Shown here: one piece after another, positions 45,625 to 61,645 of the stretch | Position numbering within the stretch: the first letter of the stretch is position 1 | How the letters are laid out: each line of letters opens with the position of its first letter | Assembly: GCA_965243805.1 (NCBI GenBank) | Contig: OZ251577.1 | Span: forward strand, 839,344 to 903,343 | Direction: 5' to 3' | From: Longimicrobiales bacterium | Lineage (GTDB): Bacteria > Gemmatimonadota > Gemmatimonadetes > Longimicrobiales > Gaopeijiaceae | Length of the DNA: 64,000 nt | Translations under genes and position numbers: made by a program | Notes under the pieces: model-generated | The model's database searches: none | What the model saw: only the letters and a program-made list of their open reading frames with translations | Told to the model about the DNA's origin: nothing

Positions 45625-48600
45625 CTACATCCCGTGACTTGCGGCAGCGGGCGACTGCCGTGGGGCTGGAGGACCTCCTGGCGCCAAGCTGGCGACGGCG
45701 GGGACGCGCGGCAAGGTGGGAGCCGATCCCTCCGCAGCCGGTCCGTCCGCAGCCGATTCCTGCGCCTCGATCCCCAGCCAACAGATCAGTTCCACTTCGG
45801 CGGGCTCGATGACCGGCAGCACCGGAGGGGGTCGCAGGGGCTCGAGACCCGTATCCAAAACTTGGTCGATCAGATGTCGCGACAGAGCGGCTCCGCGACG
45901 CTGTTTGGGCGAGTTGGCGTCGGCCGAGGCGTCGAACCACTGCCGCAGCATCATCTCCTCGCGACGGGGCCAGGGAGACTCCAGCACCTCGAGGGCGCGT
46001 CGAACGCGGTCTTCGGAGACGCCGGGCGGCGGATTGTTTCGAATGAAGGCGGCCACGCGCCGGTTCAGCGGTCGCAATCTGGGCTGGAGGTTGGCAGGGT
46101 CGGTCTCGTGCATCCAGTGTTCCCAGATGTCTTGGCGAGCGACGGTCCAAAAGTCGTAGGCGCGCTCCTGTACGACCGCAGGGAACCAAGTCGGCGTGTC
46201 CTCTTCACACTCGATCAGGCGCAAGCAGGCCCCTACCTCGGACTGGACGGCCGCTGAACGGTCGGGCATCCAGTCGGCGTCCGCGGGGACAAAGCGCAGG
46301 TACGTTCGTTCGAGCTTGGTACCGTGCCCGACGACTGCGCAGAAAAAGAATCCTCGGCGCGCGCCCCGCTTCACCATCCCCGAGCCGGTCTTCCACGGCA
46401 TCTCCACGATGCGGTCACGTTCGGCTTGGAGCGCCTTGCGCAACGTCTGACGGTACTCCTCGCCAGTCTGGGCGGCTCCGGCTGTGCCTCCGCGCTCGAA
46501 GAAGGCGGCGTCCTCGTGCAGCAGCTTCTCGATCTCCTCCCGGGTCTCGGTGAAGACCTGGCTGCCGTGCGCCGCCCCTTCGATGGGAGCCGCCACGCCT
46601 ACGCTCGCCGCCGCCATCGCCAGCTTTGCGAGAATGCGCTGCTCCAGGTTGAGCAATCGGTCGAGTCTGTCCACGGGGAAGATCGTCCGAAGGAAAACGC
46701 GATGGTGCGGGCTGCCGATTCGGTCGATGCGGCCGTGGCGCTGGACAAGACGCATCGGGTTCCACGGCATGTCGAAGTTGACGATGTGGCGACATTGCTG
46801 AAGGTTGACGCCCTCCGCGAGCACATCGGTGGAGACCAGGAGGTCGAAACGGTCCGCCGCCTGCCCTGCCGTTGCGCCCATGGAGACGGGGGCAAAGCCC
46901 TGGACGGCCTTCAGGCGGGACTCGGTGCTGGTGCGGCCGGAGCCGGTCGCCGTGGCGACGCGCCCTCGGTACGGCTCAAGGCCCGGGTGCTGTTGCACGG
47001 CGTCGGCCAGGTAGTCGCGTATCCACTCCACCGTGTCGGCGTAAGACGAGAAGACCAGCACCTTTCGTTTCTGGCGTTCGTCGTGGGAGTGGGCGGCCTC
47101 ACGCTCCGCCTGTTCGGCGACCTGGGCCAGGGCGTCCGCCAGCGCCCCCAGCTTGGGGTCTCGGTCGGGAGTGATCTTGGCCGCGTCTTCGGCCAGCTCT
47201 CGGAGAAGATGGCGGTCCCGTTCCACGTGCTGCCGCAGCCGTGGTACATCGTACAGGTTTGCATCCGAGTAGAGCCGCTCGTCGGGGTCGTCGCCCGCAC
47301 TTGCCAGCATCTCTTCCATTCCGGCCTCGTCGTCCGCCGAGAGCTCGCTGAGGAAGGCGGTGGTCACCACATATCCGGCATCCAGAGCGTCCAGAAACAC
47401 GTCGTGCATGGCGGCCATGCGCTCGGTGGTTTTCCTGAACGCGTGCGCCGAGGACTCGAAGCGCTTCAGCAGGCCCGACCGCAACAGCCCCACCACGGCG
47501 CGTCCACGGGCGCGCTCCTCTGGATCGTCGACGCGAAGCAAGTAGGCGGCGGGTGTGTAGCGCGAAAACGTAATAGCATCATCGCTATCGGGGTCCAGCG
47601 CCGCCTCCAGCCGGTCGAAGAAGCCGGGCAAGCGTTGATCCAGCGCGTAGCGGACCGTCACTGCATGGGGCACGGGAAACTCGATGCGGCGAGGCTGGCC
47701 GTCGGGTCCCGGTATCGTGTCGCCGGCGTAGTGCTTGCGCACGAACTGGCGGGTGCGCTTGACCGTGGTGGCGTCGATGATCGGGTAAAGGAGGTCCGGG
47801 CTCAAGTTCGACGGGTCTTCGCGCATGGCGGCTTCGAAGCGGCCTCGGATCGAGAGGATTCCCTGGTCCGCCAGATGCGCGTCTTGGCGCAGGAAAAAGC
47901 GGATCAGGTGGTACAGGTCCCAAAGCGAGTTGTTGACCGGCGTGGCCGTGAGGAGCAGCAGGTCGCGGCGCCGGCCAAAGAGGAGGCGTCTCATCGTAGC
48001 CGCTCGCGTCGGCGCGCCCGGGTTTCGGTAGTTGTGGGCCTCGTCCACGATGACCAGCTGGTACTCGTCCAGCCCTCGCTGCAAGTGCTCTTTGCCGGGC
48101 CGGTCGGCGTCCGGCGGCAGCAGCTGCACATCGTTGGCCAGCTGCTCGTAGGACAGCGACTCTGCGAATATCTCGTACTCGACGAGGAACTTCTTCCAGG
48201 TCGTGTCGCGCAACGCGGCAGGGCAGATCAGCAGGACACGTTGCCGCCGGTCGCGATACAACTGCAGGATCTCGCCCGCGATGAACGTCTTGCCCAACCC
48301 TACTTCGTCGGCGACGATGGCACCGCCCGTCGCCTTGATCAGCCGCAGCGCTCGAGCCACGCCGTGCTTTTGGAAGCTGGTCAGCGGCAGGTTCTTGTCG
48401 TCCTCGGCGTCCTGGTCCACCTCGTCGCCGTACAGCTGCCAGAGGACGCGAAGAAACACCTCCCATGGCCTGCGCGGCAGCAGCAGCTCCTCAAAGATGT
48501 CGACCAGGTCGTAGGGTACGGCTTCGTCCCAGAGGTGGTCGAACCACCGCCTTGCGTGCTCCACGGTGGAGGTGTCGTCGCGGCCGAGACTGAGTTCGAG

Positions 48601-49170
48601 GTTCGTGGTCAGGCCAGCGGCGGTGAGGTTGGAGGAGCCAGCAAGCACGCCTTCGGTGGCCTCGCCGGTCAGGACGTACGCCTTTGCGTGAAGGAACGCT
48701 TTCTCGTACCGACGAACCTCAATGTTCCCCGACCGCAACGCCTTGACCAGCATGGCCAAGTTAGATCGCCCGGCGTACGTAAACGGCAGGCGGTCGCGCT
48801 CTCGCCGAAGCTCTGTCGTCATGTGGGACAGGCACTCGCCGACGCAGCGCCGGTCGAAGTCGTCCTTCGGCTCGCCCAGCCGCCTTTGGCAAGGCGACAG
48901 GCCTTGGGCTGCCAAGTCGGCACCCAGAAGAAGGCGAACCATGGGGACTGTGGCCAGCCCGTCCGCGATCTGCGCGAACCCCGCCGGGCTGAAGTAGGCG
49001 GTGGCGATCCGCGCCTCGCTGGGCGGGCTTGTGGAAGGTTCGTCCGTGGATGCCGAGCCCGCCACGTTCAGCAACGAGCCAAGCGCCTGCGCGAGGGTGT
49101 TGCCGTGCCGGTTGTCTACAAAGCTCGGGAATGGTGGCGGGCCGACTGGTAGCCCATCAGTGCAATCCAT
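45625..49170 (-). CDS. Fusion of a phospholipase-D-like (HKD) nuclease domain and an SNF2-family helicase (about 1181 aa; start could instead be 49230)
   Basis: The N-terminal HKD motif is FLHAKAYVLTG...GSSNLTAAGL. The SNF2 motifs are I (IVADEVGLGKTF), II (VIVDEAHNYRN), III (LLLTATPVNN) and IV-VI (...LLVSTDVLAEGVNLQ...QRHGRIDRIG). The start overlaps the ImmA-like gene. Confidence 0.75.
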   Translation of the reverse strand: MDCTDGLPVGPPPFPSFVDNRHGNTLAQALGSLLNVAGSASTDEPSTSPPSEARIATAYFSPAGFAQIADGLATVPMVRLLLGADLAAQGLSPCQRRLGEPKDDFDRRCVGECLSHMTTELRRERDRLPFTYAGRSNLAMLVKALRSGNIEVRRYEKAFLHAKAYVLTGEATEGVLAGSSNLTAAGLTTNLELSLGRDDTSTVEHARRWFDHLWDEAVPYDLVDIFEELLLPRRPWEVFLRVLWQLYGDEVDQDAEDDKNLPLTSFQKHGVARALRLIKATGGAIVADEVGLGKTFIAGEILQLYRDRRQRVLLICPAALRDTTWKKFLVEYEIFAESLSYEQLANDVQLLPPDADRPGKEHLQRGLDEYQLVIVDEAHNYRNPGAPTRAATMRRLLFGRRRDLLLLTATPVNNSLWDLYHLIRFFLRQDAHLADQGILSIRGRFEAAMREDPSNLSPDLLYPIIDATTVKRTRQFVRKHYAGDTIPGPDGQPRRIEFPVPHAVTVRYALDQRLPGFFDRLEAALDPDSDDAITFSRYTPAAYLLRVDDPEERARGRAVVGLLRSGLLKRFESSAHAFRKTTERMAAMHDVFLDALDAGYVVTTAFLSELSADDEAGMEEMLASAGDDPDERLYSDANLYDVPRLRQHVERDRHLLRELAEDAAKITPDRDPKLGALADALAQVAEQAEREAAHSHDERQKRKVLVFSSYADTVEWIRDYLADAVQQHPGLEPYRGRVATATGSGRTSTESRLKAVQGFAPVSMGATAGQAADRFDLLVSTDVLAEGVNLQQCRHIVNFDMPWNPMRLVQRHGRIDRIGSPHHRVFLRTIFPVDRLDRLLNLEQRILAKLAMAAASVGVAAPIEGAAHGSQVFTETREEIEKLLHEDAAFFERGGTAGAAQTGEEYRQTLRKALQAERDRIVEMPWKTGSGMVKRGARRGFFFCAVVGHGTKLERTYLRFVPADADWMPDRSAAVQSEVGACLRLIECEEDTPTWFPAVVQERAYDFWTVARQDIWEHWMHETDPANLQPRLRPLNRRVAAFIRNNPPPGVSEDRVRRALEVLESPWPRREEMMLRQWFDASADANSPKQRRGAALSRHLIDQVLDTGLEPLRPPPVLPVIEPAEVELICWLGIEAQESAADGPAAEGSAPTLPRVPAVASLAPGGPPAPRQSPAAASHGM

Positions 49171-50335
49171 GGTACGTCTTGATCTTGTCGAATGTCGCCT
49201 TCTTCTTGATGGCCAGTAGATGGTACGCATCCATCGGCAGGGTCTGTAGCGACAGCGTGTGTGCGATCAAGTTACGCGAAAACCGTTCTCCGGTTCGAAC
49301 CATCTGCGTGCGCAAGAAGTTGCCTCCTGAACTCGGACGGGTGGATGCCATACGCTTTCGTTCGTTGTCGTAAGCGTCTTTGAATCTCTGGTGCGACAAG
49401 TATCCGGCGTCGCGAAGCCGTCGAAGAACGACCAGCGAGCTGACCTTGAAGTGGGTCGCCAGGCGTTGCAGAGTGCGCCTCAGCTTTTCGCCGTCGCGGT
49501 ACTGACTGCGCAAAGCGTCCAAGGGAACCAGCAGTTCGGCCGCCACTTGATTGCACCACTGCTCGGTCCGATGGCCCTCCAAGGACGCGAGTGTGGTGTT
49601 CGACAGTCCCGAGTTTCCCAGCCAAATGTGGGCCAACTCGTGTGCCAGAGTGAACATCTGGGCCGCCTTTGCGTCGGCGCCGTTCACGAAGACGAGGGGT
49701 GCTAGATCATCCGAGAGGGCGAATCCTCGGAATTCGTCGGGATCCAGCACGCGGGATGTGTTGTTTCCCACCACGCCGCTGATCATGACCAGCACGCCCT
49801 TGGCGTCGGCGCGGTCCGCAAAGCGACGAACAGCCAACGTCCAGTTAGGGACGTCGCTCCGGTCCCGGACCCGAAAATCCAAGGTGGATGACATGTTCCG
49901 GGCCACCTGGGCCGGATCGTCGCCCAGGCTGGCCGAGCCCACGAATTCAACGGGATCGTGTTCCTCCTCCACGGCATACTCGTGGTACCAGTCCTGACGC
50001 CGCTGGCACAGGTAGACGGTGTCCACTAGGTGTGCACTCGGCCTGCGGGGCTGCTTGCCAGTCGTGGTGCGGAAGTCGGCTATGCCCAGATCGTCGGTCA
50101 GGGGTCCGCCCGAGAAGAGCGCTCCGAACGGCGTGTAGGTCGCCTTAGCGAAGAGCTGGAGCTGCCGATAGGTAGGCTTGGTCGTGCCAGCCTCCCATTC
50201 GCGGTACTTGGGGAAGCGTCGCTCGAGCGTCTCCACATCTTTCCCCGAGCGTTCCTGCGCCCACCGGAGCGTCGCAGGATTCACAGACACCCGGTAGGGG
50301 CCACGCTGAGGTTGTGGGCTGGATGGAGTCGTCAT
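49157..50335 (-). CDS. Fused XRE-family HTH plus ImmA/IrrE-type zinc metallopeptidase regulator (392 aa)
   Basis: The N-terminal HTH_XRE is ...LRWAQERSGKDVETLERRF.... The HEXXH zinc motif is HELAHIWLGN, in a DUF955/ImmA-like context. Confidence 0.7.
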   Translation of the reverse strand: MTTPSSPQPQRGPYRVSVNPATLRWAQERSGKDVETLERRFPKYREWEAGTTKPTYRQLQLFAKATYTPFGALFSGGPLTDDLGIADFRTTTGKQPRRPSAHLVDTVYLCQRRQDWYHEYAVEEEHDPVEFVGSASLGDDPAQVARNMSSTLDFRVRDRSDVPNWTLAVRRFADRADAKGVLVMISGVVGNNTSRVLDPDEFRGFALSDDLAPLVFVNGADAKAAQMFTLAHELAHIWLGNSGLSNTTLASLEGHRTEQWCNQVAAELLVPLDALRSQYRDGEKLRRTLQRLATHFKVSSLVVLRRLRDAGYLSHQRFKDAYDNERKRMASTRPSSGGNFLRTQMVRTGERFSRNLIAHTLSLQTLPMDAYHLLAIKKKATFDKIKTYHGLH

Positions 50336-50372
50336 GCGGGAACACTCCCGGACGGATCGGCTGGGTCGACCT

Positions 50373-51140
50373 TCAAGGTAACCGATTGGGGGAACTGCGG
50401 AAGTGCTTCAGGACGGCATCCATTTGACTGTGGTAGTCCCAGCCCTCGTTGAAGGTCTCGAAGATGTGGACCAGTTGGCGTTCGGCAAGACCGTAGCAGT
50501 GCGCGACAAGGGCGTCGAGTTGGTGGATCAGGTCCTCTTTCTCGTCGTCGGCGAGCGGCCCCCACTCCACGCCGACGGCCTCCGCCCATTCGGCGAAGCG
50601 CTCGTCCGGGCACGCGAGACGACCCGCTATCTCCACGATGCGTTTCCACAGGGGGTCGTGGCGGCTGAGGCGGGGGATGGGGAAGGGATTGATGACGAAG
50701 TATGTGACATGTGTTTCGACAAATCGGCGAGCATACCAGTCCAAGGGAATCGAGCACAGGACGCCCAACAGGAAGGCTTGATCCTTCTCGTCGCCACGAG
50801 GCCAGAGGAAGTAGGGCGCATTGTGCACGACGAACACCCTTGGCGGCAAGAGGCAGGCGATGATGGTTCGCTTGTCCGTTGCACGTGCCACGTCGCGAAA
50901 CGCGATCCGAGGCTTGAAGCATGGTAACGTAGATTGGTCCTGAAGGATGCCTATCGGGAACTCTTTGTGTGCGCTGTCGCGCCGGCTCCTCGCCGCCCTA
51001 ATCCGCTTGCTCTGCAGCCAGTCGAGTACCGGGCTTGGGTTGGCCCAGGCGTAGGGCGGACCCTTGTTGGGATCCCATAGATCGAACGACGCGCCCTTGT
51101 ACACGGGCCAGTAACCGTCTTCGCGCTCGAAGCTCATCAT
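50373..51140 (-). CDS. Hypothetical protein (255 aa) between the methyltransferase and the ImmA-like regulator, in lower-GC DNA. It may become a C-terminal extension of the methyltransferase if the C26 tract changes length.
   Basis: Its ATG overlaps the methyltransferase stop (ATGATGA). Its reading frame is open upstream all the way to the poly-C tract. Confidence 0.45.
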   Translation of the reverse strand: MMSFEREDGYWPVYKGASFDLWDPNKGPPYAWANPSPVLDWLQSKRIRAARSRRDSAHKEFPIGILQDQSTLPCFKPRIAFRDVARATDKRTIIACLLPPRVFVVHNAPYFLWPRGDEKDQAFLLGVLCSIPLDWYARRFVETHVTYFVINPFPIPRLSRHDPLWKRIVEIAGRLACPDERFAEWAEAVGVEWGPLADDEKEDLIHQLDALVAHCYGLAERQLVHIFETFNEGWDYHSQMDAVLKHFRSSPNRLP

Positions 51141-54100
51141 TGGCTTCTGCGCCGTCGCGTGGAGGTCTGTGATCGGCCTTGCACGCCAGCCGACGGCTTG
51201 TCGAACACCATGAAGTGCTTCTGTGCTGTGGCGTCCATCTCGCGGTCTGGGCGTGCACGCCAGTTGCCTCCTCCCCCCCCCCCCCCCCCCCCCCCCCCAT
51301 TTATAATTGTGTCCTCAAATGTGTCAAGACGAGGTGCTTTGGACAGCTGGGCGAACACATCTACCGATTCGTCGCCGGGCAACAAGGGGAGCGACGCCGA
51401 GTCGTTCCACTGTTCAATGTCTTGCCGATAGAACACCAAGGGCTCATTGACCACGCCAGCGCGGAAGGCGGAATGGTCTGGATAGGGGCCGCGCATTCGC
51501 AACTGAGATCCTAATTCGTCTCCTCGGCGGGCTATCGCCACAAGCACAATCGTGTACTGAGGGGTGACACTCTCGAACACCCATCCCGCCCGATTTTTCA
51601 GAGCAACCGCATCCATACTGCTCGCCTCGCCAAACACCGCCTTCCGAAACTCCTGCGATCCTTTGGCCTGCAACGCACTCCTGGGCAGTACGACGCCAAT
51701 CCGTCCGCCCTGCTTTGCGGCCAGCCGCCAGAAGCGCCAGCAGAACGCCTTGTACACATCGGCGTCGCCGGTTCCCATGCCGGGGAAATCCCCTCCCAGC
51801 AACGCTCGTCGCACGTCGTCGTTTTCCCGCACCTCTTCTCGCAAGGCCACAACCAAGTCGGGGCGCTCCTGACGGAACCGCGCCTTCTCGGCCTCCTGGT
51901 GGCGCTGGGACATGCCGCGCAAACCGGGAAAGTGCCGCGCCCAGAAGCCGTGTTCCTCCACCTTGGGCTTCTTCCACGGCGGGTTGCCCAGGATCACGTC
52001 GAAGCCGGAGCGTTCGCGCAAAAAGACCTCCGGGAATGCTACCGGGAAGTGCAGCACGGCAAGGCCGGACAGCTCTTGCGCCGCCACAGCGTCGGGCATC
52101 TCCCCCTCTGCCAAGCCATCGCTGCGGGAATCCCAGTCCTGGAACTGGAAATCCTTGACCAATGTCCTGTCCGAGATCGGCCGGGCGGTGATCAGGTCGC
52201 ACAGCGCCTTGGTGGCCGCAACCGCTTCTTCCGCCTCCTGTTGGGCCTGCCGTGCTTGGCGCACCTCGGCCACCGTGGCGTCGTTCAAGTTGGCCAGCCG
52301 ACGCAGCGGCTTGGCGGCCTTGCCCAGCAGGGATTCGGCGTCGCATCGGAACAGCGGCGTATTGACGGCTTCAAGCTTGGCCTTGATGTCGTCAATAGTT
52401 CCGATGCCGACCAGCGAGTTCCCGCGAACCAAGTTGTGGTCCAGAAATGAAAGCGGGAGACCAGGCACGAACGTGTGAATCCACACGGCCAAACGAGCCA
52501 GCTGGACCGAAATGTCGTTCAGGTCCACGCCGTAGATGCACCGTCGCGCGATCATCCGACGCAGCAGTTGACCGTCCTCAATGGAAAATGCGCTAGCCGC
52601 GTCGCCGCCCAAATGGGTTCGCGCGGCTCGACGAAGCTCGGCCAGCTTGTTGCGCACGCGCGGCAAGTCGCGACCGACCAGAAAGTCGGCCATTCCCTTC
52701 TCGATTCGGTCGATGGCACCGACCAGGAAGTGGCCCGAGCCCATGGCGATGTCAGCCACCCGGAAGTCGAAGAACCTCTCGGCGGCGGTGGCGTCGTCCA
52801 TGGAGTCCAAGCGCTCGAAATGGTCTTTCAGCGCGGGTTCAAGCGCCTTGTCCAGCAGGTGCCCCACGGCGAACGGCTTGGTGTAGTAGCTGCCCGTGAA
52901 CTTGCGAACTCCAGAGCGGTTGTGCAGGTAGGTCTCCCCTTCGGAGACGACGACTCGCGCCTTCGGCTTGGCTGGCACGTAGGTTCCCTTGCTGTCCACG
53001 GCCAAGTCCGTGTTCGCCACGGCAAGTTCGGACTCAAGCAGGCCCTCGTAGATCGTGCCGAACTCTCTCACACGCAGCGACCGGAAGTCCACGGGTCCCG
53101 GTCCGCCTTCGGGCGTCTCAATGACCAAGAGATGACGCAGGGCGACCTCAAAGACTTCGTTGGGCAACGAGACGCGGGCCAACTCAGCGCCGGTCTCCGA
53201 CACCTTCGGGTCGTTGCTGAACAATCCGCCGTCGTACTCGGGCACGCCCCACTCCGAGTTGCCGACCGCCACTGCCTCGCACAAGCGGGCCACCTCCTGC
53301 CAGTGGGCGTCGCCTGGGGCCACGGGCGTGTTCTCGGTCGCCTGTTTGACCAGCTCCTGCGCCTTCTGCTTGAGCGAACGGCGACGGTAGGCGTCGTTGG
53401 TGCGGTAGGGCAACAGGTCGCAGTCCTCAGCGTACGCTATGAAGAGGAGGCGGAACAGCACCGTCATGGCCATGTCGTAGGTGCGAGCCAACTCCGGCGC
53501 GGTCAGCGACTCGATGCCTCTTGCGTCGGCGATGCCCTGTGCGAGCCTTGGGACGACTTGGTCGTAGATGCGCTCGCGGAGACGTTCGGCCAAGTTGCCG
53601 GCAAAACGACGGGAATCATCCAGGATTTTGTCCAGGCTGCCCTCCGGCGCCAGCGCTTCGGCGGAGAAGATCAGCCACAGGTACGCCAAGTCGGGATCGG
53701 TCAGCAGCGGAGTTTGGCACTCCACGTAGGTCTCGGTGCGGCCGCGCCTGCCGACGCCCCGGTCGGTGGCGGTCGAGTAGAGGCGCAACCGGTTGCCTTG
53801 GACCATCAACACCCAGGACAGGTTTTCGTCGTCGGCCTTCTTGAGCGCGTAGGTGACCGGCGACAGGCTGTTGAAGCGAGGGTTGCCGGCTTCCGCCGAC
53901 TCGTGGTCGTGCAGCAGGACGGCGAGGGCGGTGCGTCGCTGGCCGCCATCCCCGCTCAGGAGAAGGCGGGTCAGATTGTCCAGCGGGGCAACGCGAAAGC
54001 CCAGGGCACCCAGCATCTCGATTGCGCGGGTGCCGATTGCCTTCTGGGCCTTGCGACCGGCGGCGATCCAGTCGGGTCGCTGCCGAACCGCCGTCACGAG

Positions 54101-54646
54101 GTTATGGATGGCCAGCAGCCCCTCGTTGCGGATGCCCGGCAGATCGGTCTCCAGCGACGGCAGGGCTTGGGAGAGAAACTGAAGCGCCGAGTGGCGGTCC
54201 GGCTGCACCAAGGCTTCCCGGCAGATTCGTTCGACCCGCTCGGTGTCCAGGCCAGTCCAGACTGCGGGCTTCTCTCCTGTGGGACCGCAGAGCGCCGCGC
54301 CTTCGGGGTGAAGCACGGCCAGGAGCACCGGGGCCGCACGACCGGCTCGACGGTCCTGGTGAGCGGCGGCCATGGCGAGCCGGGACGGAGTGCGGTCGGC
54401 ACGGGCAACCACAACCTCCAGGCCATGGTCGCCTTCGCCTACGAAGAGGCCGGCGGGCTGGAAGCCGAACCGCGGGCTGGGCGACCAGGGGCGGGGAACT
54501 AGTTCGGGAAGGAAGTCCAAGGATCGTCGGGCAAGCGGCCCGCCCGATCTGGCGAGTCCGGCTTGTGGGCGAAAAAACGGGGGGGGGGGGGGGGGAGCAT
54601 AGAGCGACGCTCGAACAGGCGCAAATGCAGGGGCTGTCAGGCACAC
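51137..54646 (-). CDS. Large N6-adenine DNA methyltransferase of the PglX / DrmMI / Eco57I-like (type IIG-related) family, 1169 aa, with homopolymer tracts near both ends
   Basis: The SAM motif I is DIAMGSGHFLVGA and catalytic motif IV is VILGNPPWKKPK. A G17 run at codons 18-23 gives a Pro run, and a C26 run near the 3' end gives a Gly12 run. Confidence 0.75.
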   Translation of the reverse strand: MCLTAPAFAPVRASLYAPPPPPPFFRPQAGLARSGGPLARRSLDFLPELVPRPWSPSPRFGFQPAGLFVGEGDHGLEVVVARADRTPSRLAMAAAHQDRRAGRAAPVLLAVLHPEGAALCGPTGEKPAVWTGLDTERVERICREALVQPDRHSALQFLSQALPSLETDLPGIRNEGLLAIHNLVTAVRQRPDWIAAGRKAQKAIGTRAIEMLGALGFRVAPLDNLTRLLLSGDGGQRRTALAVLLHDHESAEAGNPRFNSLSPVTYALKKADDENLSWVLMVQGNRLRLYSTATDRGVGRRGRTETYVECQTPLLTDPDLAYLWLIFSAEALAPEGSLDKILDDSRRFAGNLAERLRERIYDQVVPRLAQGIADARGIESLTAPELARTYDMAMTVLFRLLFIAYAEDCDLLPYRTNDAYRRRSLKQKAQELVKQATENTPVAPGDAHWQEVARLCEAVAVGNSEWGVPEYDGGLFSNDPKVSETGAELARVSLPNEVFEVALRHLLVIETPEGGPGPVDFRSLRVREFGTIYEGLLESELAVANTDLAVDSKGTYVPAKPKARVVVSEGETYLHNRSGVRKFTGSYYTKPFAVGHLLDKALEPALKDHFERLDSMDDATAAERFFDFRVADIAMGSGHFLVGAIDRIEKGMADFLVGRDLPRVRNKLAELRRAARTHLGGDAASAFSIEDGQLLRRMIARRCIYGVDLNDISVQLARLAVWIHTFVPGLPLSFLDHNLVRGNSLVGIGTIDDIKAKLEAVNTPLFRCDAESLLGKAAKPLRRLANLNDATVAEVRQARQAQQEAEEAVAATKALCDLITARPISDRTLVKDFQFQDWDSRSDGLAEGEMPDAVAAQELSGLAVLHFPVAFPEVFLRERSGFDVILGNPPWKKPKVEEHGFWARHFPGLRGMSQRHQEAEKARFRQERPDLVVALREEVRENDDVRRALLGGDFPGMGTGDADVYKAFCWRFWRLAAKQGGRIGVVLPRSALQAKGSQEFRKAVFGEASSMDAVALKNRAGWVFESVTPQYTIVLVAIARRGDELGSQLRMRGPYPDHSAFRAGVVNEPLVFYRQDIEQWNDSASLPLLPGDESVDVFAQLSKAPRLDTFEDTIINGGGGGGGGGGGNWRARPDREMDATAQKHFMVFDKPSAGVQGRSQTSTRRRRSQ
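51273..51298. repeat. Homopolymeric tract of about 26 C (plus strand) inside the 3' end of the methyltransferase gene
   Basis: Read directly from the sequence. It is a simple-sequence contingency-locus candidate. Confidence 0.9.
54579..54595. repeat. Homopolymeric tract of about 17 G (plus strand; a C-run on the coding strand) 50 nt into the methyltransferase ORF
   Basis: Read directly from the sequence, preceded by an A6 run. Confidence 0.9.
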
Positions 54647-54784: not shown

Positions 54785-55489
54785 TCACCGGACGCCGATC
54801 ATTTGCCGCTTGGGCGTGACGATCGCGAGCTTCGGACTCACCCGCGTGCCGCTGTGGTGCTTGCGGTGCGCCGCCTCAAAGACGAGCTCCCGGCCACCTT
54901 CTAGCTTCGCGCGCAACTGCGGGCGCGTGCGGGCTTTGTTCCACAATGGACACGTGGCCTTGCCCAGTCGCCCGAGCTCTGTGCCTTCGACCCGGAAGCC
55001 GGTGTGCTGGTCATAGCGCACCACGAGAAAGCAGAATTTTCTCGCGCCCAACTGCGCGCCGAGCCGATCCAGCCACTGATCGTATTCGCTCACGACAGCG
55101 GCTACGGCCTGCTGCGGCTTGTCTCCGCGCCGGATCTCGTCCAGGTGCGAAGGGAAGCGCAGCGGGTAGCGTTGCGTAGCCCGGTTCCCCTTGTACATCC
55201 TGATCTTCACGCCGATGTCGCCGATCAGGAAGTTCACGTGGGTGCGCCACAGCGACACGAACCGGATCTCCGGCGATGCCGCCACGATCCAGTCCACGAG
55301 ATGCCGTTTCGTCAGATCGCCCTTGTGGTTGCTTGCGGCCAGGATGTGCTCCGAAGACTCGGAAAGCGCATCCTGTACGACCTGCACCACATCGGCGACG
55401 CCGCGCTCGGGCTGCGGGATGTCCGCCCCGAAGTATCTCGCGAGCTCCTCGCGACATATCTGTCGGATGCGGGCTTCGGTGATGTTCAT
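54785..55489 (-). CDS. Hypothetical protein (about 234 aa) immediately upstream of the methyltransferase operon. Function unknown.
   Basis: The start is set at an internal ATG (MNITEARIRQICREEL). I found no recognisable motifs. GC is lower than the background. Confidence 0.35.
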   Translation of the reverse strand: MNITEARIRQICREELARYFGADIPQPERGVADVVQVVQDALSESSEHILAASNHKGDLTKRHLVDWIVAASPEIRFVSLWRTHVNFLIGDIGVKIRMYKGNRATQRYPLRFPSHLDEIRRGDKPQQAVAAVVSEYDQWLDRLGAQLGARKFCFLVVRYDQHTGFRVEGTELGRLGKATCPLWNKARTRPQLRAKLEGGRELVFEAAHRKHHSGTRVSPKLAIVTPKRQMIGVR

Positions 55490-55972
55490 GCAGACCTCCT
55501 CCCTGTGGGGTTTGGTGCCGCTCTGCCCCACTGAGCGCGCACGTACAGTGTCGAACCTTGTCAATAGTCGGAGCCTCAAGCTTGAGCAAGTTCGACCCGT
55601 CCGACCCGCCGGGGGAAGATATCAACTCAACTTCCCCGACAGGTCAGCCAGCGGCGAGCGTGGGTTCGATGGCGCGGCAAACGTAGCTGGACATGGCAGA
55701 AGTAAGTAAGTGAACAAGAGAGAGGTGTGTGCAGATTGGCATTCAGAATGCAAATGTACCGCCACTGCCTAGCCACTTCAGAAGCTCTCGACGCCCCACT
55801 GGGTCCAGCCACTTCGCGGGCACTCGAAGCCACCAGGGTAGGACAGCGACTCCCGCACTGACTTGACATACCGTCAACCTTACGTGCCAATTAGCCTAGC
55901 CTAGCCCCGACAACCTCAGCCCGGCCGCAACAACGGCCGGCAGGAACGACTACCCCCGTTGCACCAGCAGCT

Positions 55973-58699: not shown

Positions 58700-61645
58700 A
58701 TGCCAGCCAACAGCGAAGCCACGATCAACGTCCATTTGGGCGATGTGCTGCGGACCAAGCACCCGGCTTGGCGCGAAGGGATCGGCACGGAGCAGTCGCA
58801 GGTCTTTCGCAAGGCGGCTCGCCGTCCCGACATCGTGGTGCGCCACCCAGGGCGGCAGGTCGTGGTCGTGGAGACCGAGTTCGCTCCGGGCCGCCAAGTC
58901 GAAGCCGACGCACGTGCTCGCTTGGGCGAGGTTGTCGAAGCCACCGACGGCGAGGTGGAGCAGGCCGTTGCCGTCCTCTTGCCGGAGGACCTGAAGGAAG
59001 GGCAGGACGGATTGGCAGAACGGGTCGCCGGAGCGCGGTTTCGGTACGCGGTGTTCTCGGATGCGCCCGGGACGCCGGAACGGTGGCCCGAGTCGGGGTG
59101 GCTGTCCGGCGGCGTGGACAACTTGGCGACCTGCATCGAGCACGCCTCCCTCTCGGCGAAGAAGATCGCCGAGGGCGCGCAGAAGCTGGAAGAGGGCGTC
59201 AAGCAAGCGGCAGCCCTGCTCGAGGAGCTAGCAGCATGGCGCAAGACCGACACGCTCGACTTGATCGCCGCCACGCTCCATCAGGAGAAGAGCACGCAGA
59301 CAACCCGCATGGCGATGGCGATCGTCGCCAACGCGCTGACGTTCCACAGCAACATTGCGGGCGCCCACGGCATTCCGGGCCTGGACCGGCTTCGCTACGA
59401 AGGTCGCTCCGAACTGGACCAAGCCCAGCTGCTCGAGTGCTGGCGCTTCGTGCTGCGGGAGATCAACTACTGGCCGATCTTCAAGATCGCCATCGACCTG
59501 CTCTCGCCGATCCCGGTCTACATGGCAGGCAAGGTACTGCCTCGACTGGAGAAGGCGGCGAACCATTTGGCGACCACCGGCGTTGCCAGCACCCACGATC
59601 TCTCGGGCCAGATGTTTCAGCGTCTGATCGTGGACCGCAAGTTCCTCGCCACCTTCTACACCTTGCCGGCCTCGGCAACGCTGCTGGCGGAGCTCGCGGC
59701 GTTTAGGCTGGCCGTGGACTGGAACGACGCGGGAGCCGTGTCGCGTCTACGAATCGCCGACTTGGCGTGCGGCACCGGCATGTTGCTTCAAGCGGCCTAC
59801 CAAGCCGTGCGGATGCGGCACCGCCACTGCGGACGGGACGACGCGGACCTTCACCCCGCAATGATGGAGAAGGTCCTTTTCGCCGCCGACATCATGCCCG
59901 CAGCCACTCACCTCACGGCCTCAACCCTGTCCGGCGCGCACCCCACCGTCACGTTCGCCGGCACCCGAATCGTGACGATGCCCTACGGCGAGCAGCCCGA
60001 GGAGACGGGCCGTCCGCTCTCGATCGGCTCGCTGGACCTGTTGGCCGGCGGGACGGCGCGGTCCGTACTGGGCACCGGCCCCAGCGGCGCGCAGATCGAC
60101 GTCTTCGGCACTGGCCGCAAGCAGGTTCGGGGCACCGGCGATGCCGTTGAAGCCGCCGACCCGCATTCGGTGGAGTTCGCTCACGGGAGCGGCGACCTGC
60201 TGATCATGAACCCGCCCTTCACCCGGCCCACCAACCACGAGTCCGCCACGGTCCCGGTGCCCTCGTTCGCAGGGTTCGACACCTCCCAGGCCGAACAACG
60301 GGCGATGTCGGGCGAGCTGGCGAAGCTTCGCAAGGGGTTGGACTCGCCGGCGGGCGCGGGGAACGCCGGGCTGGCGTCGTACTTCGTGGACCTGGCCCAT
60401 GTGAAGACGAAGCCCGGCGGCGTGATCGCGCTGGTGCTGCCCGCATCGTTCGTGCAGGGCGGATCGTGGGCGGCGGCACGGACGCTGGTGGAGCACCATT
60501 ACGAGGACCTGGTGGTGGTGACGATCGCAGCCAGCGGCAACACGGACCGCGCGTTCTCTGCCGACACGGGGATGGCCGAGACGCTGGTGGTGGGGACCAA
60601 GAAGCGCGACCTGGACTCGCCGTGCGGTGACGTCTTGTTCGTGAACCTTCTGCGCCGGCCCCGCAGCTTGGCCGAAGCCGCAGCTGTGGCAGCCACAGTC
60701 CGCGACCTGCCCGCCGACCGTCCGAGCGGACGCTTCTTCCTGGGCGAACTTGCCGAGGTGGGAACCTTCGTCCGGGCACCGTTGGTCGAGGGGGGCTGCG
60801 CAGGGTTGCGCGAGCCCGCGCTGGCCGACGCCATGCTGACATTGCAACAGGGCGTGCTCACGCTTCCGCGCTCCAACGACCGCCAGGCGATTCCCGTGAC
60901 CCGGCTGGACGAACTGGGCAGTCGAGGCAGGCTAGACCGCGACATCTCGGGTAAGCACCCCGACGGCACGCCCCGAGGACCCTTCGACATCGTCGTCGCG
61001 CGCACCATGCCGCTGTACCCGGTTCTGTGGTCGCACGACGCGAAACAGGAGCGCAGCCTAGTGGTCGCCCCGCGCCAGGAGGGCTTGATTCGAGAGGGCC
61101 TGAGGGAACAAGCGGTGAACCTCTGGCAAGCCACGGCAACCCGGCTGCACTTCAGTCGCGACTTCCGCCTCAACTCCCAGAGCTTGGCGGCGTGCTTGAC
61201 GCCGGCCAAGTGCATCGGCGGAACCGCCTGGCCCAACTTCGTCGCGGCGAAGGAGGAGTGGGAGAAGCCGCTGACGCTCTGGGCCAACAGCACCCTGGGG
61301 CTGATTTGCTTCTGGTGGGTCGGCACGCGCCAGCAACAAGGGCGGGCCCGACTCACGATCAGCCGCCTGCCCGATCTGCCGGTACTCGATCCCCGGCACC
61401 TGTCGGAGGCGCAGGTCAGCATCGCTGTTCGGACCTTCGACGAGTTCAGCGACCGGGAGCTGCTACCCGCCAACGAGGCGTACCGGGACGAAGTCCGTCA
61501 CGAACTGGACCGGGCTCTGCTGGTGGACGTGCTGGGGTTGCCCCCCGCGTTTCTTGGTCCCCTAGCCGCCCTGCGCGATGCATGGTGCGCCGAGCCCACG
61601 GTGCATGGGGGCAAGACGACCCGGCCAGGCCGAAAGCCGACCTAA
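58700..61645 (+). CDS. Gamma-class N6-adenine methyltransferase-domain protein with an N-terminal restriction-endonuclease-like region (MmeI-like type IIG / PglX-related), 981 aa; paralogue 1
   Basis: Motif I is RIADLACGTGMLL and motif IV is LLIMNPPFTRP. The N-terminal ...RRPDIVVRHPGRQVVVVETEF... resembles a PD-(D/E)xK-like core. Confidence 0.6.
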   Translation: MPANSEATINVHLGDVLRTKHPAWREGIGTEQSQVFRKAARRPDIVVRHPGRQVVVVETEFAPGRQVEADARARLGEVVEATDGEVEQAVAVLLPEDLKEGQDGLAERVAGARFRYAVFSDAPGTPERWPESGWLSGGVDNLATCIEHASLSAKKIAEGAQKLEEGVKQAAALLEELAAWRKTDTLDLIAATLHQEKSTQTTRMAMAIVANALTFHSNIAGAHGIPGLDRLRYEGRSELDQAQLLECWRFVLREINYWPIFKIAIDLLSPIPVYMAGKVLPRLEKAANHLATTGVASTHDLSGQMFQRLIVDRKFLATFYTLPASATLLAELAAFRLAVDWNDAGAVSRLRIADLACGTGMLLQAAYQAVRMRHRHCGRDDADLHPAMMEKVLFAADIMPAATHLTASTLSGAHPTVTFAGTRIVTMPYGEQPEETGRPLSIGSLDLLAGGTARSVLGTGPSGAQIDVFGTGRKQVRGTGDAVEAADPHSVEFAHGSGDLLIMNPPFTRPTNHESATVPVPSFAGFDTSQAEQRAMSGELAKLRKGLDSPAGAGNAGLASYFVDLAHVKTKPGGVIALVLPASFVQGGSWAAARTLVEHHYEDLVVVTIAASGNTDRAFSADTGMAETLVVGTKKRDLDSPCGDVLFVNLLRRPRSLAEAAAVAATVRDLPADRPSGRFFLGELAEVGTFVRAPLVEGGCAGLREPALADAMLTLQQGVLTLPRSNDRQAIPVTRLDELGSRGRLDRDISGKHPDGTPRGPFDIVVARTMPLYPVLWSHDAKQERSLVVAPRQEGLIREGLREQAVNLWQATATRLHFSRDFRLNSQSLAACLTPAKCIGGTAWPNFVAAKEEWEKPLTLWANSTLGLICFWWVGTRQQQGRARLTISRLPDLPVLDPRHLSEAQVSIAVRTFDEFSDRELLPANEAYRDEVRHELDRALLVDVLGLPPAFLGPLAALRDAWCAEPTVHGGKTTRPGRKPT

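What the first reader, a model, noticed from the sequence alone, without database searches (positions are those of the whole stretch)
51137..54646. Two very long homopolymer tracts (G17 and C26) inside the methyltransferase gene: candidate phase-variation switches
A 17-nt C-run on the coding strand sits 50 nt into the ORF (codons 18-23, a Pro run). A 26-nt G-run on the coding strand sits 40 codons before the stop (a Gly12 run). In a 70%-GC genome short runs are common, but 17 and 26 are far beyond chance and are prone to slipped-strand mispairing. The well-known precedent is the G-tract in Streptomyces pglX, which toggles the Pgl phage-defence system. The downstream frame containing the 255-aa ORF is open all the way back to the C26 tract. 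A change of -1 or +2 nt would therefore fuse the methyltransferase to that ORF, and a +/-1 change in the 5' tract would switch the whole gene on or off. The tract lengths could also be assembly artefacts.
Basis: partly seen in the sequence, partly recalled or inferred. Interest (0 to 1): 0.8.

Follow-up and report, generated by a model that had tools for sequence, protein, structure and literature searches.

The report
Three-state homopolymer switch in a methyltransferase
A 26-base run of G at the joint between the catalytic and DNA-recognition halves of a defence methyltransferase gene acts as a slippage-prone switch, conserved across several bacterial phyla, that appears to make the enzyme as one chain, as two coupled chains, or truncated; the second run (17 C) lies upstream of the gene, not inside it.

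Summary
Both tracts are real. They are C26 at 51273-51298 and G17 at 54579-54595 on the + strand, and they are the only homopolymers longer than 6 nt in 64 kb.

The gene, on the minus strand, is a type IIG/IIL-like N6-adenine methyltransferase. It heads a conserved operon with an M78 peptidase and an HKD-SNF2 nuclease-helicase. It is not Pgl/BREX.

The 1169-aa ORF and the downstream 255-aa ORF are two pieces of one family protein, split at the G26 tract.

- **Conservation:** The tract sits at the same linker in homologues from Longimicrobiales, Alpha- and Gammaproteobacteria and Binatia.
- **Length variation:** Lengths range from 8 to 30 nt, and one locus has poly-C instead of poly-G. All three reading frames occur, even among proteins that are identical over the 300 residues before the junction.
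- **Duplicated motif:** Every tract-bearing locus examined (24 in all) carries a duplicated 21-codon junction motif. Copy 1 is in the split frame and copy 2 is in the fused frame, and each evolves as coding sequence in its own frame. The split-frame stop overlaps the start of the second ORF as ATGA.
- **Reading:** I read this as a three-state switch (split and coupled, fused, truncated) rather than simple ON/OFF.
- **5' tract:** C17 lies 58 nt upstream of the conserved TTG start, so it cannot frameshift the gene.

This is a new variant of a known kind.

The parts
54579..54595 (-). 5' homopolymer tract, C17 on the coding strand. It lies 58 nt upstream of the probable TTG start, in the leader or promoter region.
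   Evidence: Equivalent tracts occur only in close relatives: L001 has C17-TCTT-C23 and L022 has C21 with different flanks.
54518..54520 (-). Probable start codon TTG (M-D-F-L-P-E-L-V-P-R-P-W-S-P...).
   Evidence: A TTG two codons before the conserved FLxEL motif is present in WIN, L001, L002, L011 and L022. It is the only in-frame start in L011. Family N-termini read 'M x(2-6) FLxDL'.
51137..54520 (-). N-fragment CDS in the present frame (state A). It is 1127 aa from the TTG; the maximal ORF 51137-54646 is 1169 aa. It contains the N-terminal region, the gamma-class N6A methyltransferase domain (motif I DIAMGSGHF at 52727-52753; motif IV GNPPW at 51974-51988), the Gly linker and copy 1 of the junction motif.
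   Evidence: PADLOC PDLC03620 REase_MTase_IIG, profile positions 30-1096 of 1378, E 2.6e-233. Pfam Eco57I. Coordinates.
51273..51298 (-). 3' homopolymer tract, G26 on the coding strand, in the flexible linker between the catalytic domain and the TaqI-like target-recognition domain. This is the switch itself.
   Evidence: It sits at the same position in 24 related loci with lengths of 8-30 nt, and as poly-C in L022. The corresponding linker has low model confidence (pLDDT 58-71) in the homologue P0148.
51263..51272 (-). Variable purine-rich spacer AGGAGGCAAC between the tract and copy 1.
   Evidence: The spacer differs in every relative, from 0 to 22 nt. Its resemblance to a Shine-Dalgarno sequence is not conserved.
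51200..51262 (-). Copy 1 of the junction motif (WRARPDREMDATAQKHFMVFD), read in frame A (the present frame).
   Evidence: It is intact in frame A in 10 of 10 loci retrieved independently of this motif. Third-codon-position diversity is 0.34 against 0.13 and 0.09 (permutation p = 0.0005).
51126..51188 (-). Copy 2 of the junction motif (WRARPITDLHATAQKPMMSFE), read in frame B. It joins the upstream ORF only at G27, G24 or G30.
   Evidence: The offset from copy 1 is 98 or 101 nt (2 mod 3) in the 21 loci measured. Third-position diversity is 0.43 against 0.19 and 0.15 (p = 0.0002).
51137..51140 (-). ATGA overlap. The stop (TGA) of the N-fragment in frame A overlaps the ATG of the 255-aa ORF.
   Evidence: The same TGA-over-ATG arrangement can be read from the copy-2 sequences of the 19 loci printed.
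50373..51140 (-). C-fragment ORF (255 aa), which is most of the target-recognition and C-terminal domain of the same enzyme.
   Evidence: PADLOC PDLC03620 positions 1132-1370 of 1378, E 2.3e-63. Hundreds of stand-alone homologues of 251-260 aa exist. Fold matches: MmeI and BrxX for the fragment alone; M.BseCI, CamA, PglX, MmeI and M.TaqI for the 434-aa homologue that spans the junction.
49157..50335 (-). M78 (ImmA/IrrE-like) peptidase gene, the second gene of the conserved operon.
   Evidence: Pfam PF06114. It holds the same position in 8 related operons.
45625..49230 (-). HKD (PLD-type) nuclease fused to an SNF2 helicase, the last gene of the operon. The real start is probably at 49170 or later. 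The DUF4411 gene found between M78 and the helicase in relatives is missing here.
   Evidence: Pfam PLDc_2, SNF2-rel_dom and Helicase_C. PADLOC 'HKD+Snf2' and DrmD.

Best explanation
The G26 tract is a hypermutable homopolymer in the flexible linker between the catalytic domain and the TaqI-like target-recognition domain (TRD) of a type IIG/IIL-like N6-adenine methyltransferase. This enzyme is the specificity and modification component of a four-gene defence operon with an M78 peptidase, DUF4411 (lost in this window) and an HKD-SNF2 nuclease-helicase.

Gain or loss of G by slipped-strand mispairing moves the ribosome among three frames.

- **State A (G26, as assembled).** The N-fragment ends with copy 1 of a 21-residue junction motif and stops at a TGA that overlaps the ATG of the 255-aa TRD fragment. 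The two pieces are made as separate, translationally coupled polypeptides. Copy 1 probably docks onto the TRD fragment.
- **State B (G27 or G24).** Copy 1 is read out of frame as a linker, and copy 2 joins everything into one polypeptide. That chain is about 1382 aa from the TTG, or 1424 aa from the maximal ORF.
- **State C (G25 or G28).** The N-fragment gets a nonsense tail that runs past the TRD start. In proteobacterial versions it stops immediately instead. This state is presumably OFF.

The C17 tract is a second, lineage-specific hypermutable tract in the 5' leader or promoter, 58 nt upstream of the TTG start. It can only act on the amount of expression, not on the reading frame.

**Shown:** the tracts, the three frames, conservation of the tract and both motif copies, length and state polymorphism among relatives, and the domain assignment.

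**Inferred:** the slippage itself, translational coupling, assembly and activity of the split form, and the effect of the 5' tract.
For: - **One gene in two pieces:** The two ORFs match consecutive parts of one profile. G24, G27 and G30 give 1423-1425 aa.
- **Length classes in the family:** Family lengths are bimodal, about 1345 aa for tract-less members and 1070-1150 aa for tract-bearing ones. Junction sequences fall into three classes.
- **Tract position and state:** The tract is at the same position in Longimicrobiales, Alpha- and Gammaproteobacteria and Binatia MAGs, with lengths of 8-30 nt. The 17 species-representative genomes split 6:5:6 among states A, B and C.
- **Variation among close relatives:** The closest relative, L001 (93% protein identity), has G15 where the window has G26.
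- **Variation among near-identical sequences:** Clusters at 90% identity contain all three states. P0054 (A) and P0308 (C), and P0097 (A) and P0267 (B), are identical over the 300 residues upstream of the junction.
- **Selection on both copies:** Each copy shows coding-type substitution in its own frame. Copy 1 is intact in frame A even in loci currently in state B or C.
- **Coupling signal:** The ATGA stop-start overlap is present in the window and in the copy-2 sequences of the 19 loci printed.
- **Nucleotide run, not Gly codons:** L022 has poly-C at the junction, so it is the run that is kept.
- **Recurrent tracts:** Other homologues evolved extra tracts elsewhere in the gene.
- **Structure:** The linker has low model confidence. 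The motif is modelled confidently with the TRD (pLDDT 87-96). The first 30 residues of the C-fragment are poorly modelled when the motif is absent. Fold matches are M.BseCI, CamA, PglX, MmeI and M.TaqI.
- **5' tract:**
- **Precedents:** Cj0031 has a polyG between the Eco57I domain and the TRD (PMC4889913). In NgoAV a polyG toggles two active forms (PMC9577141). EcoKI M and S work both coupled and fused (PMC3510504).
Against: - No read-level data exist. Homopolymer lengths in assemblies are error-prone, especially in long-read assemblies, and some of the apparent state diversity could be noise.
- No experiment shows that the split form assembles or methylates.
- The substitution tests use few, phylogenetically related sequences.
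- One locus (L024) has a stop in frame B and one (L011) has a stop in copy 1, so not every locus keeps all states.
- No convincing promoter or Shine-Dalgarno signal was found for the C-fragment or around the 5' tract.
- The N-terminal nuclease domain expected of a type IIG enzyme was not identified.
Confidence: 0.7

Rival explanations
1. Classical two-state phase variation. Only the fused frame (G27 or G24) gives an active enzyme. The present G26 frame and the third frame are both OFF. The duplicated motif is a relic of the duplication or insertion that created the tract.
For: This is how Cj0031 is described, with G9 ON and G10 OFF. Tract-less family members are single chains of about 1345 aa. 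Copy 2 is under coding selection in the fused frame.
Against: Copy 1 is conserved as protein in frame A across phyla, with third-position-biased substitution (p = 0.0005). It is intact in 10 of 10 independently retrieved loci, whereas a relic read only out of frame should decay. The frame-A stop overlaps the C-fragment ATG in the window and in the 19 loci printed. Hundreds of stand-alone 255-aa ORFs exist.
Confidence: 0.17
2. Recoding at the RNA or ribosome level. The long G run makes RNA polymerase or the ribosome slip, so every DNA length yields a mixture of split, fused and truncated products. The DNA length is then nearly neutral.
For: States are about equally frequent among genomes, 6:5:6, as expected if DNA length is not under selection. 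Tracts are far longer (up to 30 nt) than needed for DNA slippage. Both frames are kept coding.
Against: In the papers retrieved here, bacterial transcriptional slippage is described for A/T runs (PMC1088944; PMC6260861). Nothing retrieved addressed G/C runs. L022 uses poly-C on the coding strand, and tracts as short as 8-10 nt occur. DNA lengths demonstrably differ between near-identical sequences, so DNA-level switching happens in any case. This rival could act in addition to DNA slippage rather than instead of it.
Confidence: 0.1
3. Artefact or decay. The tracts are assembly errors, or the gene is a pseudogene broken by a frameshift.
For: The window also lost DUF4411.
Against: The tract occurs at the same codon position in at least 24 independently assembled loci from different phyla and projects. 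Both flanking ORFs are intact and highly similar to family members. The sequence features around the tract (two motif copies, ATGA overlap, TAG/TAA in frame C) do not depend on tract length.
Confidence: 0.03

Closest known systems
Campylobacter jejuni Cj0031/Cj0032 phase-variable type IIG restriction-modification enzyme (PMC4889913)
   Same: It is an Eco57I-family N6A methyltransferase with an intragenic polyG about 70-80% into the gene, between the methyltransferase domain and the TaqI-like TRD. Tract changes split the gene into two annotated ORFs. The tract is present in only a subset of alleles.
   Different: The Campylobacter tract is G9/G10 and is described as ON/OFF. Here tracts are 8-30 nt, in a high-GC uncultured lineage, conserved across phyla, and accompanied by a junction motif duplicated in two frames plus an ATGA stop-start overlap. 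The gene also sits in a different operon (M78, DUF4411, HKD-SNF2). The two are not orthologous beyond the shared domain family.
Neisseria gonorrhoeae NgoAV type I system, polyG in hsdS1 (PMC9577141)
   Same: A polyG tract toggles between a truncated specificity product and a fused one, and both are active. It is therefore a switch between two functional forms rather than ON/OFF.
   Different: NgoAV is a type I system. The switch lies inside the S subunit and changes specificity through half-S dimerisation. There is no duplicated dual-frame motif, and the tract is 6-9 G.
Streptomyces coelicolor pglX G-tract (Pgl / BREX type 2) (PMC4365076, citing Sumby and Smith 2003)
   Same: It is a high-GC organism with a G tract in a defence methyltransferase of the same broad PglX/type IIL structural class, and high-frequency switching was measured.
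   Different: This locus has no PglZ, PglW, PglY or BrxC. PglX profile hits are marginal (E 3e-5). The pglX tract is an ON/OFF frameshift.
EcoKI hsdM-hsdS overlap and engineered M-S fusion (PMC3510504)
   Same: The methyltransferase and specificity modules are made from overlapping, translationally coupled ORFs. Removing the frameshift gives a functional fusion. This shows that both architectures can work.
   Different: In EcoKI the frameshift is fixed, and the fusion was made in the laboratory. Here a hypermutable tract would toggle between the two architectures naturally.
BREX-related 'type-2 BR' systems (PMC12839542) and class 1 DISARM
   Same: They combine an N6A methyltransferase with an N-terminal HKD nuclease-Swi2/Snf2 helicase effector. 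PADLOC DrmMI and DrmD profiles hit the two proteins.
   Different: No DUF499 ATPase, DUF3780, DrmA or DrmB (DUF1998) was found in or next to the conserved four-gene operon.

Membership tests
Type IIG/IIL restriction-modification enzyme (Eco57I/MmeI-like) | Gamma-class N6-adenine methyltransferase domain with motif I and motif IV (NPPW) | tested here: met
   Pfam Eco57I, E 1.8e-12. DIAMGSGHF is at residue 632 and GNPPW at residue 887. PADLOC REase_MTase_IIG, E 2.6e-233.
Type IIG/IIL restriction-modification enzyme (Eco57I/MmeI-like) | C-terminal TaqI-like target-recognition domain in the same polypeptide | tested here: inconclusive
   The domain is present by fold. The homologue P0148 matches M.BseCI, CamA, PglX, MmeI and M.TaqI at E 1e-9 to 1e-6. 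In this window it is on a separate ORF in the assembled frame and joins only at G27 or G24.
Type IIG/IIL restriction-modification enzyme (Eco57I/MmeI-like) | N-terminal endonuclease domain in the same polypeptide | not tested
   No Pfam domain was found in the first ~560 residues, and no solved relative was found by sequence. A separate HKD nuclease-helicase is encoded in the operon, so cleavage may reside there.
Simple-sequence-repeat contingency (phase-variable) locus | Hypermutable repeat placed so that length changes alter the product | tested here: met
   The three frames give products of 1169, 1424 and 1215 aa.
Simple-sequence-repeat contingency (phase-variable) locus | Repeat length polymorphic among closely related sequences | tested here: met
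   G26 against G15 in the 93%-identical L001. All three states occur within 90% clusters, and in pairs with identical upstream sequence.
Simple-sequence-repeat contingency (phase-variable) locus | Reversible high-frequency switching within a clonal population | not testable with these tools
   Needs reads or cultures. The window's own protein is not in the contig collection.
Pgl / BREX (PglX) | Co-occurrence with PglZ and BrxC/PglY (and PglW for type 2) | tested here: not met
   Neighbour lists of 8 related operons and the window show only M78, DUF4411 and HKD-SNF2. The best PglX profile hit is E 3e-5.
DISARM class 1 | DrmA helicase and DrmB (DUF1998) with DrmMI, DrmD and DrmC | tested here: not met
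   DrmMI and DrmD profiles hit, but no DUF1998 or DrmA gene occurs in any of the operons.
BREX-related type-2 BR system (PMC12839542) | DUF499 ATPase and DUF3780 together with the N6-MTase and HKD-Swi2/Snf2 helicase | tested here: not met
   The MTase and HKD-SNF2 are present. DUF499 and DUF3780 are absent from the operons and flanks.

The most novel reading that the evidence does not exclude
The tract plus the junction motif duplicated in two frames is a conserved, evolved three-state device. One nucleotide of slippage converts a single-chain methyltransferase-TRD enzyme into a two-subunit enzyme, whose subunits are translationally coupled and held together by the duplicated docking motif. 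A further nucleotide switches it off. Both productive architectures are kept by selection across at least four bacterial phylum- or class-level lineages. This implies that the split and fused forms differ in some useful way, such as activity level, partner exchange, restriction versus modification balance, or resistance to phage inhibitors.
Probability: 0.45. Interest if true: 0.8.

Novelty: new variant of a known kind. Interest (0 to 1): 0.62.

Why it matters
Phase-variable restriction-modification genes are known almost only from host-adapted pathogens such as Campylobacter, Helicobacter, Neisseria and Haemophilus, where tracts run 6 to 10 nt (Cj0031 G9/G10, NgoAV 6-9 G) and the logic is ON/OFF.

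Here the same principle appears in high-GC, uncultured environmental lineages: Longimicrobiales, several proteobacterial orders and Binatia. Tracts reach 30 nt at one conserved linker position.

An added sequence device, the dual-frame duplicated motif with an ATGA overlap, makes two of the three frames look productive. If confirmed, this would be a natural switch between a fused and a split enzyme. It would be a compact model for gene fission and fusion, and for how defence systems tune themselves.

It also has a practical consequence. Hundreds of database entries for this family are annotated as truncated or separate 'hypothetical proteins' because of the tract.

Tried and rejected
- **Inverted-repeat or RNA-pairing idea.** C26 and G17 on the + strand could be arms for inversion, or could form a C17:G26 mRNA duplex. 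Rejected: L002, L003 and most homologues have no 5' tract, and L022 has poly-C at both sites.
- **G-quadruplex as the conserved function.** Rejected for the same reason, since L022 has poly-C on the coding strand.
- **Internal promoter.** By eye, TTGACA-N16-TATAAA abuts G26 and TTGCGC-N17-TATGCT abuts C17. The scan found no site that passes its rule. TTGACA comes from conserved R-L-D-T codons, and the AT-rich stretch is a linker rich in N, E, K and T that varies among homologues. I kept this only as a note.
- **AGGAGG after the tract as a Shine-Dalgarno sequence.** The spacer is different in every relative.
- **5' tract as a coding Pro run.** Rejected on start-codon evidence. The ATG just before the tract is in frame in L001 but out of frame in the window. 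The frame upstream of the tract differs between the two.
- **RNA element in the leader.** No Rfam family matched, and the fold z-score is -0.17.
- **Metagenome pattern scan.** It returned only one locus.
- **Exact look-up of the window's C-fragment.** It found nothing, so no same-strain comparison was possible.
- **Sequence search of solved structures.** The search with a full-length homologue found nothing.
Full report
**Observation**

The window carries C26 at 51273-51298 and G17 at 54579-54595 on the + strand. No other homopolymer in the 64 kb (67.7% GC) is longer than 6 nt. A 12-mer G/C search hits only these two places. Both tracts lie in or next to a long minus-strand ORF (51137-54646, 1169 aa). 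On the coding strand they read C17 near the 5' end and G26 near the 3' end. Minor corrections: the Gly run is 11 residues, and the tract ends about 44 codons before the stop.

**What the gene is**

The ORF has a Pfam Eco57I methylase domain, with motif I (DIAMGSGHF) and motif IV (GNPPW). It matches the PADLOC profile REase_MTase_IIG PDLC03620 over profile positions 30-1096 of 1378 (E 2.6e-233).

The 255-aa ORF immediately downstream (50373-51140) matches the same profile at positions 1132-1370 (E 2.3e-63). The two ORFs are therefore two pieces of one family protein, broken at the G26 tract. Rebuilding the sequence with different tract lengths shows that G24, G27 or G30 give one ORF of 1423-1425 aa. 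G26 gives 1169 aa and G25 gives 1215 aa.

Downstream lie an M78 peptidase and an HKD(PLD)-SNF2 helicase. Eight related loci have the operon methyltransferase, M78, DUF4411, HKD-SNF2 with otherwise unrelated flanks. No PglZ, BrxC, DUF499, DUF3780 or DUF1998 gene is present. The system is therefore neither Pgl/BREX, nor DISARM, nor a 'BR' system as defined in PMC12839542. It is an RM-like system with a type IIG/IIL-like methyltransferase.

**The 3' tract in relatives**

A protein search found 1266 homologues with a bimodal length distribution. About 60% of the classified top hits are tract-less single chains of about 1345 aa. Their junction reads '...APRLDLNVEGQ-WRARPD(R/A)EL(D/H)AT.QK.LMDL...WPVYKG'.

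The rest carry a Gly run at exactly this linker and fall into three classes:

- **State A:** the sequence continues 'WRARPDREMDAT.QK.FM.F...' and stops about 20 codons later. The window is in this state.
- **State B:** the protein is fused, with a linker such as 'ARPSRSRDGRH...' followed by a second 'WRARPD.ELHAT.QK.LMTF...WPVYKG'.
- **State C:** the protein is truncated.

DNA for 24 distinct related loci was fetched in several ways: by protein look-up, by a pattern scan of species-representative genomes and by a metagenome scan. These show the tract at the same place in MAGs labelled Longimicrobiales, Alphaproteobacteria, Thalassobaculaceae, Paracoccaceae, Arenicellales, Pseudomonadales and Binatia. 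Lengths are 8-30 nt. The closest relative (L001, 93% protein identity) has G15 where the window has G26. In L022 the tract is C14 on the coding strand, so it is the nucleotide run that is conserved, not the glycines.

Among the 17 representative genomes the three states occur 6:5:6. Within 90%-identity protein clusters all three states co-occur. The P0105 cluster, for example, has members of 1071/1072/1073 aa, 1115/1116 aa and 1371 aa. Pairs with identical 300-residue upstream sequence differ in state: P0054 (A) against P0308 (C), and P0097 (A) against P0267 (B). This is what a rapidly slipping tract predicts. The caveat is that homopolymer lengths in assemblies are error-prone.

All homopolymers of 9 nt or more in about 0.27 Mb of these loci lie in or just upstream of this gene. 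Two homologues have evolved additional tracts elsewhere in the gene: L015 has C13 before motif IV, and L020 has G14 after motif I, out of frame. The family looks like a recurrent target for contingency switches.

**The duplicated junction motif**

Directly after the tract every tract-bearing locus examined has two diverged copies of a 21-codon segment.

- In the window, copy 1 (51200-51262) encodes WRARPDREMDATAQKHFMVFD in the present frame (frame A).
- Copy 2 (51126-51188) encodes WRARPITDLHATAQKPMMSFE in the frame of the 255-aa ORF (frame B).
- The copy-1 to copy-2 offset is 98 or 101 nt, always 2 mod 3, in the 21 loci measured.

In ten loci retrieved without using copy 1 as bait, copy 1 is intact in frame A in all ten, including loci currently in state B or C. 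Its nucleotide diversity is concentrated at third positions of frame A: 0.34 against 0.13 and 0.09, permutation p = 0.0005. Mean amino-acid identity is 0.85 in frame A against 0.60 in the other two frames. Copy 2 shows the same pattern in frame B: 0.43 against 0.19 and 0.15, p = 0.0002 (the larger, partly biased set is). Both copies therefore evolve as coding sequence, each in its own frame.

In frame A the ORF ends at a TGA that overlaps the ATG of the conserved Met ('ATGA'; 51137-51140 in the window). This overlap is seen in the window and in the copy-2 sequences of the 19 loci printed. It is the classical arrangement for translational coupling, as in EcoKI hsdM/hsdS (PMC3510504). In proteobacterial versions frame C hits TAG or TAA immediately after the tract. 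Stand-alone C-fragment ORFs of 251-260 aa are very common in the database.

**Where the tract sits in the protein**

An AlphaFold model was built for a 434-aa tract-less homologue spanning the junction (P0148). Its fold matches M.BseCI, CamA, PglX/BrxX, MmeI and M.TaqI (E 1e-9 to 1e-6). This stretch is therefore the end of the catalytic domain plus a TaqI-like TRD and C-terminal helices.

The stretch corresponding to the tract insertion has low confidence (pLDDT 58-71). The junction motif and the following residues are modelled confidently (87-96). In a model of the window's C-fragment alone, the first 30 residues are poorly defined (pLDDT 45-61).

I infer that the tract lies in a flexible interdomain linker. 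I also infer that the motif packs against the start of the TRD fragment. In state A, copy 1 on the N-fragment could then dock onto the separately made TRD. This step is inference from model confidence, not from inspected contacts.

**Mechanism proposed**

Slipped-strand mispairing at the tract cycles the gene among three states: (A) split, coupled two-chain enzyme; (B) fused single chain; (C) truncated, probably OFF. The window as assembled (G26) is in state A.

A simple ON/OFF model in which only B is active does not explain the frame-A conservation of copy 1 or the ATGA overlap. I give it about 0.17. RNA-level or ribosomal slippage on such long runs could add to, or blur, the DNA states. The papers I retrieved describe bacterial transcriptional slippage only for A/T runs, and DNA lengths clearly differ among near-identical sequences. 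I give it about 0.1 as the main mechanism. Artefact or pseudogene is unlikely, at about 0.03.

A rough neighbour-joining tree shows tract-bearing and tract-less genes interleaved. P0292 shows a clean loss of tract plus copy 1 within a 95%-identical cluster. The device is therefore repeatedly lost, probably by recombination between the two copies, or is exchanged with the TRD module. The window and L001 are 95.6% identical over the first 3 kb of the gene but only 87% identical from just before the tract through M78.

**The 5' tract**

Family N-termini read 'M x(2-6) FLxDLxxRPW'. In the window that motif is preceded by a TTG at 54520. The same TTG is present in L001, L002, L011 and L022.

- In L011 a stop codon lies 11 codons upstream, and TTG is the only in-frame start.
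- In L022 there is no in-frame start upstream of its C21 tract.
- The frame upstream of the tract differs between the window and L001.

The C17 tract is therefore most likely non-coding, 58 nt upstream of the start. A 5' poly-C is found only in the closest lineage: the window (C17), L001 (C17-TCTT-C23) and L022 (C21, with different flanking sequence). It is absent from L002, L003 and L011 and from the proteobacterial loci whose 5' region was in range.

Its variable length and independent flanks suggest a second, recently evolved hypermutable tract acting on transcription or translation initiation. I could not identify a convincing promoter or RNA element. Its effect remains an inference by analogy with promoter-located tracts in other phase-variable genes, which I cite from my own knowledge rather than from anything tested here.

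**Comparison with known systems**

- **Cj0031/32 of C. jejuni** is the closest. It is a type IIG gene with G9 at nt 2573 of 3732, between the Eco57I and TaqI_C domains. It switches ON/OFF, and the tract is absent from many alleles (PMC4889913).
- **NgoAV** shows that a polyG can toggle two active forms (PMC9577141).
- **EcoKI** shows that methyltransferase and specificity modules work both as coupled separate chains and as a fusion (PMC3510504).
- **The pglX G tract** is a looser analogy (PMC4365076).

What appears new is the combination of very long tracts conserved at one linker across phyla of uncultured bacteria, and a junction motif duplicated in two frames with an ATGA overlap. I found no description of this in the literature searches.

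**Verdict**

This is a new variant of a known kind.

The main uncertainties are three: there are no read-level data, there is no evidence that the split form is active, and the role of the 5' tract is unknown.

Noticed in passing
window ~49148 (junction between the M78 gene, 49157-50335, and the helicase ORF, 45625-49230): The DUF4411 (PIN-like) gene found between M78 and the HKD-SNF2 helicase in all 8 related operons is cleanly missing here. The gap is ~498 nt relative to L001 13458-13955.
   Followed up: partly
window 49148-51609 compared with L001: Identity to the closest relative is mosaic. It is 95.6% over the first 3 kb of the methyltransferase gene. There is no blastn match for ~165 nt (about 51446-51609). 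It is 87% from there through the tract, C-fragment and M78, and 96% over the helicase. This suggests recombination or exchange of the TRD module.
   Followed up: partly
window 54785-55579 (-): The gene just upstream of the methyltransferase is a 264-aa ORF with no Pfam or PADLOC match. In L001 the same slot holds an AAA_14/DUF4143 ATPase, while the flanks beyond are 97% identical.
   Followed up: partly
L015 (gene-orientation 4475-4487) and L020 (gene-orientation 778-791): Two homologues carry additional long tracts at other places in the same gene. L015 has C13 just before the LHFPVVFPEVF...GNPPW region, in frame. L020 has G14 about 45 codons after motif I, out of frame.
   Followed up: partly
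L022 9028-9041 and 5712-5732: In this Longimicrobiales-type relative the junction tract is poly-C (C14) on the coding strand instead of poly-G. A C21 tract lies 76 nt upstream of the TTG start, with flanks unrelated to those in the window.
   Followed up: yes
L011 (copy 1) and L024 (end of copy 1, frame B): L011 has only G8 and an in-frame TAG inside copy 1. L024 has a TGA in the fused frame. These look like switches that are decaying or locked.
   Followed up: no
window 51299-51330 and 54596-54630 (minus strand): Both tracts are directly preceded by sequences that look promoter-like by eye: TTGACA-N16-TATAAA before G26 and TTGCGC-N17-TATGCT before C17. Neither passes the scan's rule. The first is largely explained by conserved R-L-D-T codons plus an AT-rich linker (35.7% GC).
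   Followed up: partly
window 58700-61645 (+): This 981-aa ORF has a weak type II methyltransferase profile hit (PDLC03338, E 1e-9). A 981-aa gene in the corresponding position and orientation is also present in L001. It may be another defence-related gene.
   Followed up: no
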